In this document: in pieces, positions 5,867-25,431 of the stretch | Layout of the letters: each line of letters begins with the position of its first letter | How positions within the stretch are numbered: position 1 is the stretch's first letter | NCBI GenBank assembly: GCA_045637325.1 | Contig: JAZTZF010000140.1 | Location: forward strand, 1 to 27,507 | Reading direction: 5' to 3' | DNA length: 27,507 nt | Source: Eubacteriales bacterium | GTDB lineage: Bacteria; Bacillota; Clostridia; Oscillospirales; CAG-382 | Translations under genes and position numbers: made by a program | The notes under the pieces: model-generated | What the model was told of the DNA's origin: nothing | Seen by the model: only the letters and a program-made list of their open reading frames with translations | Databases searched by the model: none

Positions 5867-6748
5867 ATGAAAAAGTCACTTGTTTTTCGCGGCGCGGCGA
5901 CCGCGCTCGCAACACCGTTTGATAACAACGGTATAGATTACCTTGCTTTTGCAAAAATGATAGACCATCAACTCACCAACGGAATAGACGCATTGGTCGT
6001 TTGCGGCACGACAGGTGAATCCTCCACCCTTACCGATGCCGAAAAGCGCGAGCTTATATGCTTTGCCGTGCGTCAGGTAAGGGGGCGTGTTCCAGTTATT
6101 GCCGGAACCGGAAGCAACGACACAAAACGCGCCTGCGTGATGTCGGAATATGCGGCAAACGCAGGTGTTGATGCCTTGCTGGTAGTAACGCCGTATTATA
6201 ATAAATGCACACAAAAAGGGTTGGCGTCGTATTATAACGATATCGCCTCTGCCTCGGGACTTCCGTTTATCGCATACAGCGTTCCTGCACGGACCGGCAT
6301 GAAGATAGAACCCGAAACCGCACAGCAGATTTCCGAAAACCCATTAGCGGCAGGACTAAAGGATGCAGGCGACAGTATTTCGGATACGGCACGCACAATA
6401 TCGCTCTGCGGAGATGCACTGCCGATATATTCGGGCAACGACGACCGCATACTGCCGGTACTTTCGCTCGGCGGAAAAGGGGTTATATCGGTAATGTCGA
6501 ATATCATACCGTCGAAGGTAAAGAAGCTCTGCACACTCTTTTTTGATGGCGAGATCGAAAAATCGGCACGTCTTCAAACCGAGCTTATACCGCTTTGCGA
6601 TGCCTTGCGGTGTGAGGTCAATCCTATCCCCATAAAAGCGGCGCTTGCCGAGATCGGCTTGTGCAAAAATATTCTCAGAGCACCTCTTACGGGCATCTCG
6701 CCCGAGAACGCCGAAAAACTGATGACGGTAATAAAGTCGTTGGATTAA
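5867..6748 (+). CDS. dapA: 4-hydroxy-tetrahydrodipicolinate synthase
   Basis: GTTGES, VTPYYNK, catalytic Tyr (YSVP.RTG), Schiff-base Lys (GLKDA), SGND and NPIPIKAAL motifs. Confidence 0.93.
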   Translation: MKKSLVFRGAATALATPFDNNGIDYLAFAKMIDHQLTNGIDALVVCGTTGESSTLTDAEKRELICFAVRQVRGRVPVIAGTGSNDTKRACVMSEYAANAGVDALLVVTPYYNKCTQKGLASYYNDIASASGLPFIAYSVPARTGMKIEPETAQQISENPLAAGLKDAGDSISDTARTISLCGDALPIYSGNDDRILPVLSLGGKGVISVMSNIIPSKVKKLCTLFFDGEIEKSARLQTELIPLCDALRCEVNPIPIKAALAEIGLCKNILRAPLTGISPENAEKLMTVIKSLD

Positions 6749-6793
6749 TAAAAACCTCGAAGTTTAGCATTGTGTTCTAAAGGACACAATGCA

Positions 6794-6969
6794 GCGATAT
6801 AAATCCCTAACGGGATTTTCGATATACGCCTTCGGCGTTCGATATGTGCTGCGCACGTGATATGCCCTGCGGGGCGTGAAGGGATTTATATCATATCGAA
6901 TTTACCTTTAGGTAAATATATCGATTTTTCCGGCAGGAAAAAATATCGCATTGCGGAGCAATATATCGC
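6794..6969. repeat. Inverted array of mini-hairpins punctuated by CGATAT/ATATCG (unclassified structured repeat element)
   Basis: CGATAT at 6795, 6820, 6840 and TGATAT at 6858; ATATCG at 6893, 6918, 6943, 6963. Seven perfect hairpins lie between the motifs. Terminal inverted repeat GCGATATA/TATATCGC (8 bp). Confidence 0.85.
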
Positions 6970-6976
6970 AAAAAAC

Positions 6977-7023
6977 AACTACCCGAAGAAGAGAAGCAAA
7001 AACTCTTTTTCGGGTAGTTTTGT
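6977..7023. terminator. Probable bidirectional terminator between dapA and the SPFH gene
   Basis: AACTACCCGAAGAAGAG pairs with CTCTTTTTCGGGTAGTT (17 bp, one G-T), flanked by A-rich and T-rich tracts. Confidence 0.7.
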
Positions 7024-7168
7024 CTTATTCGGTTACAAGCAGGGAATTTGTGTGCCAAATTCCGTTTCAATTAAAGATAAATGTCCTTAGCAACCCTACT
7101 CGTTTGTCTTCGGGGTTTTTATTGCTTTTTGATGAAGGTGCGTGGTCTTGGCACCTTGATGAAAGAAA

Positions 7169-8170
7169 TCAGATGTTAAAAATATCGGGAGTAGATTTCT
7201 TCTTTTTGGGCTTTATGGGTTCATCGTCACAGCAAGGGTCGGGTTTCTTCGGAGGATTGGGATCCTCGGGTGCGGGATACGTAACGTCGCCGAGACCCGA
7301 GGTCTCCGAGAACATAACGTTAGACTTTGTCATATCGACCGCATCGGTGGGTATGATAATCTTAGAAGCCTTGCCGTCGGACATTGCAACGAGCGCTTCG
7401 TATTTCTTGAGTTCAAGCACGGCAGAATCGACACCTGCTTCGCGCAATGCGACCAAACCGTCTGCTTCTGCCTTCTTTGCGAGATAAATAGCGCGAGATT
7501 CACCTTCGGCGCGAGCGATGCGCGCGTCTCGTTCACCTTCCGCGGCAAGGATCATTGCCTGCTTTTCGCCCTCAGCGCGAGTGATAGCCGCTGCCTTGTG
7601 TCCTTCTGCCTGAAGTAGGGTTTCACGACGGTCGCGTTCTGCCTTCATCTGCTTTTCCATCGCGTTTTGAATTCCTGCGGGAGGAATGATGATACGCAAT
7701 TCAACGCGGTGAACCTTCATGCCCCATTTGTCGGTAGCTTCGTCGAGAATCTCGGTCATTTTCGCGTTGATGGTATCACGCGAGGTAAGGGTGCCGTCGA
7801 GTTCGAGTTCGCCAACAAGGTTACGCAACGTGGTTGCCGCTAGGTTTGCAAGTGCAGAAATCGGATTTTCTGCGCCGTATGCGTAAAGCTTTGCGTCGTA
7901 AACGGCATAATAAATGACCGTGTCGATCTGCATGGTAACGTTATCTTTGGTGATAACAGGCTGAGGAGGCGAGTCAAGCACCTGTTCCTTGAGCGAGATC
8001 CTTTTCGCGATTTTTTCGAAGAGAGGAATCTTGATGTGGAAGCCTGCGGACCACGTGCCCTTGTATTTACCGAGCCATTCGATTACAAATTCGTGTGCCT
8101 GAGGAACAATTTTTATATTTGCGATAATTATTGCCAAAATGACAATTGCCAAAAAAACAAAAAAAGGCAT
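7169..8170 (-). CDS. SPFH/band 7 (stomatin/QmcA-like) membrane protein
   Basis: N-terminal TM helix, VITKDNV, LRNLVGELELD.TLTSRD.IN, AMEKQMKAERDRR and an EG/AE coiled-coil repeat. Start at MPFF (8170) with an AAGGAG RBS. Confidence 0.92.
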   Translation of the reverse strand: MPFFVFLAIVILAIIIANIKIVPQAHEFVIEWLGKYKGTWSAGFHIKIPLFEKIAKRISLKEQVLDSPPQPVITKDNVTMQIDTVIYYAVYDAKLYAYGAENPISALANLAATTLRNLVGELELDGTLTSRDTINAKMTEILDEATDKWGMKVHRVELRIIIPPAGIQNAMEKQMKAERDRRETLLQAEGHKAAAITRAEGEKQAMILAAEGERDARIARAEGESRAIYLAKKAEADGLVALREAGVDSAVLELKKYEALVAMSDGKASKIIIPTDAVDMTKSNVMFSETSGLGDVTYPAPEDPNPPKKPDPCCDDEPIKPKKKKSTPDIFNI

Positions 8171-8200
8171 AATAGTTCTCCTTTTCATTAATTTACAAAT

Positions 8201-8229
8201 ATTATAGTGCATATAGGTCTAAATGTCAA
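8201..8229 (-). promoter_or_regulatory. Perfect consensus sigmaA promoter for the SPFH gene
   Basis: Minus strand reads TTGACA (8224-8229)-17 nt-TATAAT (8201-8206). Confidence 0.85.
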
Positions 8230-8475: not shown

Positions 8476-8919
8476 TTACGCTTGATTCAAACTTTCGGCA
8501 TAATTGCTGGCAAGCTCGTCGCATCGCTCGTTATAGGCGTGTCCGTCGTGTCCGCGTACCCAAATAAACTCTACTTCGTGCGTGTTAAGCAACACGTCAA
8601 GCTTCTTCCAAAGATCGTCGTTAAGAACCGCCGATTTGTCTGCCTTGCGCCAGCCTTTTTGTTTCCAGCTTGCAAGCCAACCCTTGTTAATGGCGTTTAC
8701 CAAATATTGCGAATCGCTGTAAAGCATAACCTTGCAGGGGCTTTTAAGTGCGCTCAGTCCCTCGATGGCGGCAGTGAGCTCCATGCGGTTGTTGGTTGTG
8801 TTATTTTCGCCGCCGCAAAGCTCTTTTTCTCTGCCCTCGTATTCGAGTATCGCGCCCCAGCCGCCTGCACCGGGGTTACCTTTGCATGCGCCGTCGGTAT
8901 ATATATTTACGGTTTTCAA
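8476..8919 (-). CDS. rnhA: Ribonuclease HI
   Basis: [43 protein letters not shown]. Its ATG overlaps the upstream stop (ATGA). Confidence 0.96.
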
Positions 8920-9845
8920 TCGTCAACACCCTTTATTTTTTGCATTCTTATGTCTTTGCCTACAAACTGCAACACCCTGAACTCGCCCAGCAACCTTGAC
9001 AGCAATCTTTCGCCGTAGGTTTTTCTTATGCCTGCAGGGGAGAGGTTGGATGATATGATCGTCTTTTTGCCGTTTACGATCCTTAGATCGATAAGACTCG
9101 TTATTGCCGAAACGCTGTATTGGGTAATGCACTCGGCACCGAGGTCATCGATAATAAGAAGATGGCAGTTTTCGTATTTTTTGCGCTCGGAAATATCCAT
9201 TCGGTTGAACCTGACGGCATCTACCGTATCAAAGATCTGCTGCGCCGATTCGTAAATTACGCTAAGCCCTTTTGAGGAAACTACATTGGCGATAGCTGCC
9301 GAAAGGTGCGTTTTTCCGAGCCCCGTACCGCCGAGGAACAAAAGTCCTGCCGAGGTATCGTTACGAAAACCGTCGGCATATTTTCTGCAACCGTTCAGTA
9401 TTGCTTCCATCTGCTTTCTCTCGGAACCCTCGGAATAAAAATCGAGCGAGAAATTGTCAAACGTCTTGCCGACAAGTCCGCCTGCAAGTGCGCTTTCTTG
9501 GTAATTTTCGCTTGCCATCATATTTTTTATGCATTGGCAGAGCTTCAATCCGCAATATCCGCCGTCGTTGCATTCGTTGCATTCAAACCGCGGAGTATCG
9601 TAATCGGGCTCGTATCCTGCCGCCTCGAGCAGACGAGCGCGCTCTGCGGTAAGTGCATCCGATTCGGCGCGCAAAACCTCTATGCTCTCACCGATTATAG
9701 ACCTCATGGGGATATCCTCAAGAAGAGCGTCTATCTGCTTTATCCTCGGCAACCTTGCATGAAGCTCGGCGCGTTTTATATCCGATTTGTTTATGGCGTC
9801 TATTCTTTTTTCGGTCTTTATCCTTAACGCATCATTTAACTTCAT
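8916..9845 (-). CDS. DnaC/DnaI-like AAA+ helicase loader with Zn-finger
   Basis: CxxC...CxC (CNEC...CQC), Walker A GGTGLGKT, Walker [16 protein letters not shown], and YGERLLSRL arginine finger. Confidence 0.85.
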
Positions 9846-25259: not shown

Positions 25260-25300
25260 ATAAAAAATCATACAGCGATGCTATAAACAGCAAAAACCGC

Positions 25301-25411
25301 ATCTTCTTCCATCCAGACTTTACTGTTGGTCTCGGAATCGCACCGAATCATGTGCCAAAAGCACTCGCGGACTGTACCGCCAATCGGGAATTTCACCCTG
25401 CCCCGAAGATT
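25301..25411 (-). ncRNA. FMN riboswitch (RFN element)
   Basis: Minus strand ATCTTCGGGGCAGGGTGAAATTCCCGATTGGCGGTACAGTCCGCGA...TGATTCGGTGCGATTCCGAGACCAACAGTAAAGTCTGGATGGAAGAAGAT matches the RFN consensus P1-P6. Confidence 0.95.
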
Positions 25412-25431
25412 TATCTTTAATTGTCTTATAT

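What the first reader, a model, noticed from the sequence alone, without database searches (positions are those of the whole stretch)
6794..6969. Two-armed mini-hairpin ladder with a repeated ATATCG foot motif and strand-oriented GNA loops: candidate undescribed ssDNA element
Seen, left arm: CGATAT (6795), AAATCCC-TAAC-GGGATTT, CGATAT (6820), ACGCC-TTC-GGCGT, CGATAT (6840), GTGC-TGC-GCAC, TGATAT (6858), GCCC-TGC-GGGGC. Seen, right arm: ATATCG (6893), ATTTACC-TTTA-GGTAAAT, ATATCG (6918), TTTTTCC-GGCA-GGAAAAA, ATATCG (6943), ATTGC-GGA-GCAAT, ATATCG (6963). The stems all differ in sequence but are perfect, and the motif spacing is 25/20/18 and 25/25/20 nt. The ends form an 8-bp inverted repeat (GCGATATA/TATATCGC). 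Six of seven loops are C-GNA-G or C-GNNA-G when read on the strand where the motif reads ATATCG: GTTA, GAA, GCA, GCA on the minus strand and GGCA, GGA on the plus strand. Left and right motifs can pair into a ladder of stacked four-way junctions. A 12-bp alternative stem (6796-6807 with 6881-6892) competes with the first hairpin. Established: d(GNA) triloops closed by C-G are unusually stable in DNA, and 'hairpin plus short foot motif' is how HUH/Y1 transposases and some ssDNA-recognising proteins read their targets. Inference: a structure-encoded, sequence-variable ssDNA element, such as a non-autonomous mobile unit, a REP-like array of a new type, or a protein loading site. An RNA role is less favoured because each arm is optimal on a different strand. 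I do not recognise it as a named family.
Basis: partly seen in the sequence, partly recalled or inferred. Interest (0 to 1): 0.8.

Follow-up and report, generated by a model that had tools for sequence, protein, structure and literature searches.

The report
Gene-less Gut-1-type hairpin-array repeat
The odd ladder of mini-hairpins behind dapA is real. It is a gene-less copy of a repeat scattered through gut Clostridia, a variant of the catalogued but unexplained 'Gut-1' motif, and in sister species the same array sits directly in front of a small Avd-like protein gene that probably reads its repeated six-base word.

Summary
The element is not an unnamed family. Its left arm scores 42.6 bits (E 3e-7) against Rfam Gut-1 (RF01706, threshold 50). 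The published Gut-1 seed already contains GUGAUAU-linker members, and this same MAG holds above-threshold Gut-1 copies with the same two-armed layout.

The 176 nt are the core of a 347-bp dispersed repeat (window 6762-7108). It consists of an outer hairpin, a 4+4 word/hairpin array, a terminator-like hairpin and a tail. There are at least 5-6 copies here and many in congeners. Stems are kept by compensatory changes (18 of 51 pairs).

In six congeners a CGATAT array lies 15-41 nt (15-25 in five) before the start codon of a PF05635 (Avd-like, four-helix-bundle) gene. The 117 such proteins of the genus form clades, each with its own word. The window copy has no gene. It lies 14 nt behind dapA and ahead of its own terminator-like hairpin.

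No HUH/Y1 or reverse-transcriptase gene was found.

Best reading: the words are docking sites for the cognate Avd-like oligomer, and the hairpins are sequence-free spacers.

This scan has found the family before on other DNA.

The parts
6762..7108 (+). Whole repeated unit (347 bp): outer hairpin, two-armed array, terminator-like hairpin, tail
   Evidence: blastn against the window's own genome: C112 98% over 347 bp. Partial copies lie at the contig ends of C4, C109, C52, C36 and C195, and a diverged copy is on C23. Congeners G019, G063 and G051 carry it at 78-90%.
6767..6792 (+). Outer 12-bp hairpin at the 5' edge of the unit
   Evidence: Inverted repeat I6, 92% complementary. 4 of its 12 pairs change on both sides in homologues (helix 1). 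Similar outer hairpins occur in other word classes.
6795..6875 (+). 5' arm: words at 6795, 6820, 6840 (CGATAT) and 6858 (TGATAT), alternating with hairpins H1 6801-6818, H2 6826-6838, H3 6846-6856 and H4 6864-6875; loops TAAC, TTC, TGC, TGCG
   Evidence: Sequence. Rfam Gut-1 hit 6792-6868, 42.6 bits, E 3e-7. Compensatory changes in H2-H4.
6880..6892 (+). Centre segment, exact complement of word 1 plus the 5' half of H1 (6796-6808). It gives a 13-bp stem that competes with H1 and would enclose the rest of the 5' arm.
   Evidence: I4, 100% complementary. Forcing this stem costs only about 6 kcal/mol against the ladder fold, RNA -78.7 against -84.9. An equivalent complement of at least 9 bp is present in 35 of 71 gene-linked arrays, with different sequences.
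6893..6968 (+). 3' arm: words ATATCG at 6893, 6918, 6943 and 6963, alternating with hairpins H5 6900-6917, H6 6925-6942 and H7 6950-6962; loops TTTA, GGCA, GGA
   Evidence: Sequence. Weak Gut-1 hit on the minus strand, 20.7 bits. Compensatory changes in H5 and H6.
6970..7026 (+). Long imperfect hairpin with an A-run before it and a T-run after it; intrinsic-terminator-like, possibly working in both directions
   Evidence: I3, 24-nt arms, 83% complementary. It is part of the repeat unit.
7027..7108 (+). Tail of the unit, with a small hairpin at 7043-7063
   Evidence: Conserved in sister copies. The terminator-plus-tail module (query positions 210-345) also follows arrays of another word class (GTGATAT) in at least 8 congeners. 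The terminator scan hits 7043-7063.
5867..6748 (+). dapA (dihydrodipicolinate synthase), the flanking gene; its stop codon lies 14 nt before the unit
   Evidence: Pfam PF00701, E 1.5e-85.
7169..8212 (-). SPFH/Band 7 gene, the convergent flanking gene
   Evidence: Pfam PF01145, E 2.7e-35.

Best explanation
Window 6762-7108 is a gene-less ('orphan') copy of a dispersed, structure-encoded repeat of uncultured gut Clostridia. The repeat belongs to the Gut-1 motif family (Rfam RF01706). Its core is a two-armed array. A 6-7-nt word (YGATAT, and its complement in the other arm) alternates with mini-hairpins whose stems are free to vary but stay paired.

Shown:
- It is multi-copy.
- Its stems covary.
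- In sister species, homologous CGATAT arrays form the 5' module of a small cassette. The array ends 15-41 nt (15-25 in five of six) before the start codon of an Avd-like four-helix-bundle gene (PF05635).
- Each clade of these proteins carries its own word.

Inferred mechanism:
- The words are the docking sites of the cognate Avd-like homo-oligomer.
- The hairpins are sequence-free spacers. Once folded, they bring successive words side by side.
- The complementary second arm can zip the words into a ladder of 6-7-bp rungs that hides them. Alternatively, the 13-bp centre stem can form and leave the 3'-arm words single-stranded.
- The window copy has lost, or never had, the gene. It sits behind dapA, ahead of its own terminator-like hairpin. 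It is therefore either an extra docking or decoy site for a cognate protein encoded elsewhere (not in this 82%-complete assembly) or a selfish remnant.
- Whether the folded form that matters is RNA or DNA is not settled.
For: Family:
- Gut-1 hit at 42.6 bits, E 3e-7.
- 20 Gut-1 hits in the window's own genome, 2 over threshold, lying in plus-then-minus pairs.
- Hits in 22 of 24 congeners and in several other families of the order.
- The published seed holds GUGAUAU members, with the AUAUCAC arm visible in their flanks.

Repeat:
- At least 5-6 copies at 86-98% identity in different contexts.
- 18 of 51 stem pairs change on both sides. 94.7% of cells are paired, against 29-46% when the partner columns are slid. 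0 of 500 shuffles reach this.

Partner gene:
- The genome has five PF05635 matches. Three have a hairpin array directly upstream (behind a tRNA gene and its terminator). One has a long imperfect inverted repeat of a TTCTCT word without side hairpins. One is cut by a contig end.
- Six CGATAT-class arrays in congeners precede such genes, with no room for a promoter.
- About 72 of 119 genes of the genus have a detectable two-armed array upstream.
- On a tree of 117 proteins, every word class forms a clade. The CGATAT clade has SH-aLRT support of 95.
- The word is identical in all of about 8 positions of an array, whereas the stems differ. Base pairing between the arms alone would not require that.
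- All four evaluable high-copy genomes for the CGATAT word (G051, G013, G019, G063) hold a clade gene. The same holds for GTGAAGT.
- The protein family is homologous to Avd of diversity-generating retroelements (PMC10053308). The nearest solved structure is 2RLD, five chains, E 5.5e-24.
- DNA targets of such retroelements carry hairpins with variable GC stems and conserved GRNA loops. Their authors consider contact with Avd possible (PMC3240598).
Against: - Agreement between protein clade and word is what linkage alone would give, since gene and array are inherited together. No binding has been shown.
- This genome has its largest orphan family (CGATAT) without a cognate gene in the assembly. 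The best match is only 52-54% identical.
- G047, 99% complete, has one or two CGATAT arrays and no clade gene.
- About 14 true CGATAT arrays from a GTDB-wide scan had no PF05635 gene within 8 kb.
- Arrays also precede unrelated genes: GNAT, a cytidine-deaminase-like gene, and a secreted protein.
- In most word classes a consensus promoter lies between the array and the gene, and a terminator lies before the array. There the array is probably not part of the mRNA, whereas in the CGATAT class it must be. One mechanism has to fit both situations.
Confidence: 0.5

Rival explanations
1. A stand-alone structured RNA module with no dedicated protein. The array plus its terminator-like hairpin acts as a 3'-UTR cap, as REP elements do in E. 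coli. It would stop read-through between convergent genes and shield the upstream mRNA from 3' exonucleases. The Avd-like gene would be just the commonest cargo next to it.
For: - The window copy lies between the dapA stop codon and a terminator-like hairpin that belongs to the unit.
- Most orphan copies lie in spacers between convergent genes, with the array 8-31 nt after a stop codon.
- Stems covary.
- Mismatches lean to G.T on the sense strand, 9 against 2.
- Contigs of RNA libraries from three studies hold relatives of the array.
- Rfam files Gut-1 as an sRNA.
Against: - It does not explain why all of about 8 words in an array are identical, nor why they change in concert between classes.
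- Wobble pairs make up under 1% of 1060 pairs, which is unusual for a selected RNA.
- The loops are triloops of C-GNA-G / C-TNC-G type, mirrored between the arms, rather than the stable RNA tetraloops.
- In most gene-linked classes the array lies between a terminator and a promoter, where little transcription is expected.
Confidence: 0.2
2. A folded-DNA element. The array acts as single-stranded or cruciform DNA. Both strands fold into equivalent ladders with stable C-GNA-G mini-hairpins. It would serve as the recognition or recombination site that lets the unit and its cassettes spread, through an enzyme not yet identified.
For: - Loop polarity is mirrored between the arms across 186 hairpins, and the closing pair is C-G in 157 of them.
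- Pairing is almost purely Watson-Crick, as expected if both strands must fold.
- Word spacing varies (18-25 nt), which rules out helical phasing on straight duplex DNA.
- Copies are recent and lie in unrelated contexts.
- The cassette is present behind rlmD in G069 and G059 but absent there in this genome.
- Gene-linked arrays mostly lie outside the predicted transcripts.
- Parallel in print: the DNA hairpin/cruciform of retroelement targets (PMC3240598).
Against: - No HUH/Y1 transposase and no reverse transcriptase are in the assembly. Only two Xer-like tyrosine recombinases were found.
- No target-site duplication, target motif or clean terminal inverted repeats were found at 11 left ends.
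- Stems of 4-7 bp are too short to extrude singly from duplex DNA (general knowledge).
- The unit carries directional features (outer hairpin, terminator-like hairpin, tail) that look like a transcription unit.
Confidence: 0.15
3. A selfish or neutral repeat with no function for host or protein. Uniform words arise from the way the array grows (slippage or duplication between words, and gene conversion among copies), and hairpins persist because palindromes are copied as units.
For: - Orphans greatly outnumber gene-linked copies.
- The unit is a mosaic of modules that occur separately.
- Many copies sit at contig ends, as recent repeats do.
Against: - Compensatory changes in stems, together with invariant words across species that are only 70-80% identical in dapA, indicate selection on structure and on the word.
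- The architecture is kept across word classes and across several families of the order.
Confidence: 0.1

Closest known systems
Gut-1 RNA motif (Rfam RF01706; Weinberg et al. 2010, PMC2864571)
   Same: - A row of short hairpins with covarying, unrelated stems, joined by one conserved linker word (consensus UGAAAU; some seed members have GUGAUAU).
- Found in gut metagenome Clostridia.
- Triloops of CUUCG type.
- The window's left arm aligns end to end with the 77-position model.
- Seed members sit behind a tRNA gene and its terminator, as in this genome.
   Different: - The word here is YGAUAU and the score is 42.6 bits, under the threshold of 50.
- The Rfam model covers one arm only. The second inverted arm, the centre stem, the outer hairpin, the terminator/tail module, the multi-copy orphan state and the neighbouring PF05635 gene are not described in the paper.
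- The paper gives no function.
REP/REPIN elements with their RAYT transposase (from memory: Bertels and Rainey 2011; Nunvar 2010)
   Same: - Short structured repeats, often as inverted doublets, scattered mostly behind genes.
- Many gene-less copies and few copies next to a family-specific protein gene.
- Protein clade matches repeat variant.
   Different: - REP stems are conserved in sequence and carry a GTAG foot. Here only the 6-7-nt word is conserved, and each unit holds 7 different hairpins.
- The partner is a small four-helix bundle with no known catalytic activity, not an HUH/Y1 nuclease. None is in the genome.
Avd and the target hairpin/cruciform of diversity-generating retroelements (Guo et al. 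2011, PMC3240598; PMC10053308)
   Same: - The partner protein family (PF05635) is homologous to Avd.
- Retroelement targets need a DNA hairpin whose GC-rich stem may vary in sequence, while its G..A loop is strand-specific and essential. The loops here follow the same grammar.
   Different: - No reverse transcriptase, template repeat or variable repeat is present here.
- Retroelement targets have one 7-10-bp hairpin with a 4-nt GRNA loop, not arrays of 4-7-bp hairpins with triloops and a repeated word.
- Binding of Avd to that hairpin has not been shown either.
Intervening sequences of 23S rRNA that carry an S23p/PF05635 ORF (from memory: Leptospira, Coxiella)
   Same: A small PF05635 gene travels with a long, inverted-repeat, highly structured nucleic-acid element that behaves like an insertion.
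   Different: Those elements lie inside rRNA helices and are cut out by RNase III. Here the arrays lie behind tRNA genes, rlmD or ordinary genes, and precede the gene rather than enclose it.
RNAs that present a short repeated word to a ring-shaped or multimeric protein (TRAP with its GAG repeats, CsrB/RsmZ with CsrA; from memory)
   Same: Many copies of one short word at regular intervals, suited to a homo-oligomer. Gene-less copies could act as sponges.
   Different: - Here the spacers are hairpins.
- A second arm carries the complement of the word.
- The word differs between paralogous systems in a single genome.
- The nucleic acid may be DNA.
Integron attC sites
   Same: Recombination sites defined by folded single-strand structure rather than sequence, attached to promoter-less small gene cassettes. 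Here CGATAT arrays precede promoter-less small genes, including a deaminase-like one.
   Different: No integron integrase context was seen. attC is a single imperfect hairpin with R and L boxes lying 3' of the cassette gene, not an array of mini-hairpins 5' of it. Membership was not tested.

Membership tests
Gut-1 RNA motif (RF01706) | Three or more short hairpins with unrelated stems, joined by one conserved linker word of the (U/G)GA(A/U)AU type | tested here: met
   The cmscan alignment covers model positions 1-77 with all three stems formed. The linkers read CGAUAU in place of UGAAAU.
Gut-1 RNA motif (RF01706) | Score at or above Rfam's gathering threshold (50 bits) | tested here: not met
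   The left arm scores 42.6 bits (E 3e-7) and the right arm 20.7 bits. No Gut-1 hit appears in the gathering-threshold scan of the window.
Gut-1 RNA motif (RF01706) | Continuity with accepted members: same architecture, same genomes, same context | tested here: met
   The window's own genome has two hits over threshold (64.1 and 52.2 bits), forming the same plus/minus arm pair. The published seed holds GUGAUAU-word members behind a tRNA gene and terminator, with the inverted arm in the flank. A GTGATAT-class orphan shares the outer hairpin, centre stem and tail with the CGATAT unit.
Gut-1 RNA motif (RF01706) | It is an RNA, that is, transcribed as a discrete non-coding RNA | tested here: inconclusive
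   No RNA run of this organism was listed. Contigs from RNA libraries of three studies hold relatives of the array, but DNA carry-over cannot be excluded. Most gene-linked arrays lie between a terminator and a promoter.
Gut-1 array plus Avd-like (PF05635) cassette (unpublished; seen repeatedly in this scan) | A PF05635 gene directly downstream of the array | tested here: not met
   In the window the 3' arm runs into a terminator-like hairpin, and the next gene is a convergent SPFH gene. It is met for homologous CGATAT arrays in G069, G059, G019, G063, G064 and G054, and for three other arrays of this genome.
Gut-1 array plus Avd-like (PF05635) cassette (unpublished; seen repeatedly in this scan) | A clade-matched (cognate) PF05635 gene somewhere in the same genome | tested here: not met
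   The best tblastn match of six CGATAT-clade proteins in the assembly is 52-54% identical, to the GTGAAAT-class gene. The assembly is 82% complete, and contig C23 ends inside a CGATAT array, so absence is not shown.
REP/REPIN with RAYT | A Y1 (HUH) transposase gene of the RAYT/IS200 type in the genome | tested here: not met
   PF01797 finds nothing in the assembly, while the control genomes ring.
REP/REPIN with RAYT | A repeat unit with a conserved palindrome sequence and a GTAG foot | tested here: not met
   Stems differ within one unit and between species. Only the word is invariant.
Diversity-generating retroelement | A reverse transcriptase gene with template and variable repeats | tested here: not met
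   PF00078 finds nothing in the assembly. Template and variable repeats were not searched for.
Integron attC | An integron integrase, and a single imperfect hairpin with R/L boxes 3' of the cassettes | not tested
   Only a general tyrosine-recombinase search was run: two Xer-like genes, neither near an array.

The most novel reading that the evidence does not exclude
Gut-1 is not an RNA gene but a DNA-structure element. The two-armed array folds on both strands into equivalent ladders of C-GNA-G mini-hairpins. Its repeated word is read by a dedicated ring of an Avd-like four-helix-bundle protein. Gene-linked masters and their many gene-less copies would then form a self-propagating pair of the REPIN/RAYT kind, but without a nuclease. 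This would also give a first function to the non-retroelement members of the Avd/23S-IVS protein family.
Probability: 0.2. Interest if true: 0.85.

Novelty: new variant of a known kind. Interest (0 to 1): 0.55.

Why it matters
Gut-1 has sat in Rfam since 2010 as an orphan motif, with one sentence of description. PF05635 proteins outside retroelements and rRNA intervening sequences have no known role. If the two belong together, both gain a testable partner.

The loop grammar, shared with the DNA hairpins of retroelement targets, would suggest what Avd-type proteins recognise in general.

For annotation, the practical point is that Rfam's one-arm model misses variants with other words, such as this one. 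These arrays also break assemblies of gut Clostridia MAGs: many copies lie at contig ends.

This window adds the orphan state to the picture. It shows a high-copy word class without a cognate gene in the assembly, joined to a separately mobile terminator/tail module.

Tried and rejected
- HUH/Y1 transposase (PF01797) and reverse transcriptase (PF00078): none in the assembly. Only two Xer-like recombinases were found.
- Empty site: dapA and the SPFH gene are neighbours in only one other genome of those searched (G017), and that spacer holds an array of another word class. Elsewhere dapA is followed by a plain terminator and other genes, and the nearest dapA is only 79% identical. No clean empty site could be defined.
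- Target-site duplication, target motif or terminal inverted repeats: none convincing at 11 left ends. The right end is diffuse.
- Orientation of orphans relative to the upstream gene: 16 of 19 look co-directional. This is automatic in spacers between convergent genes. In spacers between tandem genes it is 2 against 3, so no bias is shown.
- Expression: no RNA holder was listed for the organism itself. The laid RNA-library contigs come from relatives, cover mainly 6790-6900, and cannot show strand, ends or level.
- GTDB-wide pattern scan: many hits outside Clostridia are chance matches without palindromic spacers. About 14 true arrays, all in gut or rumen Clostridia MAGs, had no PF05635 gene nearby.
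- The other Rfam hits (mir-186, SQ2397 and so on) are noise on the terminator-like hairpin.
- My first hairpin-chain scanner, without the word requirement, gave 468 mostly spurious chains.
- Not run: structure prediction and complex prediction. Neither could test nucleic-acid binding.

Full report
**What is there.**
- Left arm: four YGATAT words at 6795, 6820, 6840 and 6858, alternating with four mini-hairpins.
- Right arm: four ATATCG words at 6893, 6918, 6943 and 6963, alternating with three hairpins.
- There is an 8-bp terminal inverted repeat, and a 13-bp (not 12-bp) perfect complement between 6796-6808 and 6880-6892.
- Either strand folds far better than shuffles, z about -6.5.
- The word cluster is about twenty times denser than even the window's own elevated background.

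**It has a name.** A scan of Rfam aligns 6792-6868 end to end with Gut-1 (RF01706) at 42.6 bits, E 3e-7, below the curated 50 bits. The right arm hits the same model on the minus strand at 20.7 bits. The Gut-1 consensus is (UGAAAU + hairpin) x 3, so the window differs mainly in the word.

The window's own genome is a 1.45-Mb MAG of 236 contigs, 82% complete. It gives 20 Gut-1 hits, two above threshold, and they come as plus-then-minus pairs. Twenty-two of 24 congeners and several other families of the order have hits, up to 43 per genome.

Weinberg et al. (PMC2864571) say only that the motif occurs in human-gut metagenomes and is probably a non-coding RNA. Their seed alignment already holds GUGAUAU-word members behind a tRNA gene and terminator, with the inverted AUAUCAC arm visible in the unmodelled flank. 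The window element is therefore a variant of a catalogued family with no known function, not an unnamed one.

**Extent and copies.** blastn against the genome shows that the repeated unit is 6762-7108 (347 bp). It comprises an outer 12-bp hairpin, the array, a long terminator-like hairpin (6970-7026) and an 80-nt tail.
- A 98% copy lies on C112.
- Partial copies lie at the ends of C4, C109, C52, C36 and C195.
- Diverged arrays lie on C23, C50 and C189.
- Full-length copies at 85-90% occur several times in G019, G063 and G051.

The unit is a mosaic. The terminator/tail module (query positions 210-345) also follows arrays of a different word class (GTGATAT) in at least eight congeners. Those arrays share the outer hairpin and the centre stem.

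In an alignment of 14 copies the words are invariant. Eighteen of 51 stem pairs change on both sides, and 94.7% of cells are paired against 29-46% for slid controls.

**The neighbour gene.** I took this lead from earlier notes of this scan and then tested it. The genome has five PF05635 (23S-IVS/Avd-like) matches.
- Three sit directly behind hairpin arrays with the words GTGAAGT, GTGAAAT and ATATCATC.
- One follows a long imperfect inverted repeat of a TTCTCT word without side hairpins.
- One is cut by a contig end.
- Where the contig allows, the order is tRNA gene, terminator, array, promoter, gene.

None carries the CGATAT word. The best match of CGATAT-clade proteins in the assembly is 52-54% identical. 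In congeners, however, arrays homologous to the window's lie before PF05635 genes: 15-25 nt before the start codon in G069, G059, G019, G063 and G064, and 41 nt in G054. Two of them lie right on the end of rlmD. In this genome rlmD has no array behind it.

I collected 119 PF05635 genes from 61 genomes of the genus. About 72 have a detectable two-armed array upstream. On a tree of 117 proteins, each word class forms a clade, and the CGATAT clade has SH-aLRT support of 95.

This agreement is what linkage would give, so it does not prove binding. What linkage does not explain is that all of about eight words of an array stay identical while the stems between them diverge, and that they switch in concert between classes.

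High-copy CGATAT genomes that can be evaluated (G051, G013, G019, G063) all hold a clade gene. This genome, G058 and G048 (64-82% complete) do not in their assemblies. G047 (99% complete) has one or two arrays and no clade gene. The GTGAAGT class behaves similarly.

**RNA or DNA.** In 72 non-redundant gene-linked arrays (186 hairpins):
- The 5' arm carries TTC, TGC and TNNC loops, and the 3' arm carries GAA, GCA and GNNA loops.
- The closing pair is C-G in 157.
- Only 18 mismatches occur in 1060 pairs, 9 of them G.T and 2 A.C on the sense strand.

The near absence of wobble pairs fits a need for both strands to fold.

One class (ATATCATC; C196, C67, C69) has the opposite arm order. Its GNA loops follow the orientation of the word.

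The variable word spacing (18-25 nt) makes sense only if the hairpins fold.

In most classes a near-consensus promoter (TTGAAA, 17 nt, extended -10) lies between the last word and the gene, and a terminator lies before the array. There the array is probably not in the mRNA. The CGATAT class has no such promoter and must be read through from the upstream gene.

The window copy lies between the dapA stop codon and the unit's own terminator-like hairpin, so it should be transcribed with dapA. Contigs of RNA libraries from three studies hold relatives of the array, which is a weak hint only. I cannot decide between RNA and DNA.

**The competing stem.** Word 1 plus the 5' half of H1 is repeated as its exact complement at the centre. 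Forcing that stem costs about 6 kcal/mol relative to the ladder fold and frees the 3'-arm words. An equivalent complement of at least 9 bp, with quite different sequences, is present in 35 of 71 arrays, against a control mean of 5.0. Two alternative folds therefore seem to be part of the design.

**Mechanism proposed.** The words are docking sites for the cognate Avd-like oligomer. The nearest solved relative, 2RLD, has five chains in the entry (E 5.5e-24). Homology of PF05635 to Avd is stated in PMC10053308.
- The hairpins are spacers that bring the words together once folded.
- The second arm hides or exposes the words.
- The parallel with the DNA hairpin/cruciform of retroelement targets (variable GC stem, essential strand-specific G..A loop, possible contact with Avd; PMC3240598) is suggestive but untested.

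I found no paper linking PF05635 to Gut-1.

**Rivals.**
- A protein-independent 3'-UTR or terminator module of REP type.
- A folded-DNA recombination or mobility site, for which I found no enzyme, no target duplication and no target motif.
- A selfish repeat.

**Verdict.** The element is a new variant of a known, unexplained family, and this particular copy is an orphan. The same family and its Avd-like neighbour have been reported by this scan before on other DNA. What this window adds:
- the orphan state, joined to a separately mobile terminator/tail module;
- a high-copy word class without a cognate gene in the assembly;
- family-wide counts of the loop polarity and of wobble pairs;
- the position of promoters relative to the arrays.

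Noticed in passing
own genome contig C189:430-560 (not in the window): A CGATAT 3' arm, with its left arm mostly missing, runs straight into a ribosome-binding site and a 130-aa cytidine/blasticidin-type deaminase-like gene in place of an Avd-like gene. Arrays plus a promoter also precede a GNAT gene (C78) and a signal-peptide protein (L026, G011:C48).
   Followed up: partly
L195 (G017:C98), spacer between dapA and the SPFH gene: G017 is the only other genome of those searched where dapA and the SPFH gene are neighbours. It has, at the same place, an array of a different word class (GTGATAT/ATATCAC) followed by a terminator. Whether this is one old insertion whose words changed in concert or two separate insertions is open.
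   Followed up: no
own genome C196:1931-2090, C67:6483-6640, C69:51-112: These arrays have the opposite arm order: ATATCAT words and GNA loops in the 5' arm, ATGATAT words and TNC loops in the 3' arm. Inverting the whole array cannot produce this topology. A sister protein clade uses the same word in the usual order.
   Followed up: partly
own genome C224:3812-3990 and relatives (TTCTCT class): Here the Avd-like genes are preceded by a long imperfect inverted repeat of a TTCTCT/AGAGAA word with no side hairpins.
   Followed up: no
L029 (G009:C2) and L144 (G018:C57): In some GTGAAAT-class loci an extra copy of the word lies after the promoter, 16-23 nt before the start codon and next to the ribosome-binding site.
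   Followed up: no
window 6970-7108; also L052 and L053: The terminator part of the tail module also occurs alone, behind a gene whose product ends ...TEIATKAR, in two congeners. The modules seem to shuffle independently.
   Followed up: no
whole window: YGATAT occurs 78 times in 27.5 kb, against 34 +/- 6 expected from shuffles. This is an excess beyond the ten copies in the array.
   Followed up: no
window 25297-25414 (-): FMN riboswitch, 107.5 bits.
   Followed up: no
own genome C232:3040-3260: A further word class (TGAAT/ATTCA) has a 13-bp outer hairpin resembling that of C50 and no Avd-like gene in the assembly. Congeners have TGAATTG-class genes behind rlmD-like gene ends.
   Followed up: no
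window 8916-9845 (-): A 309-aa IstB/DnaC-like ATPase gene. No link to the arrays was seen.
   Followed up: no
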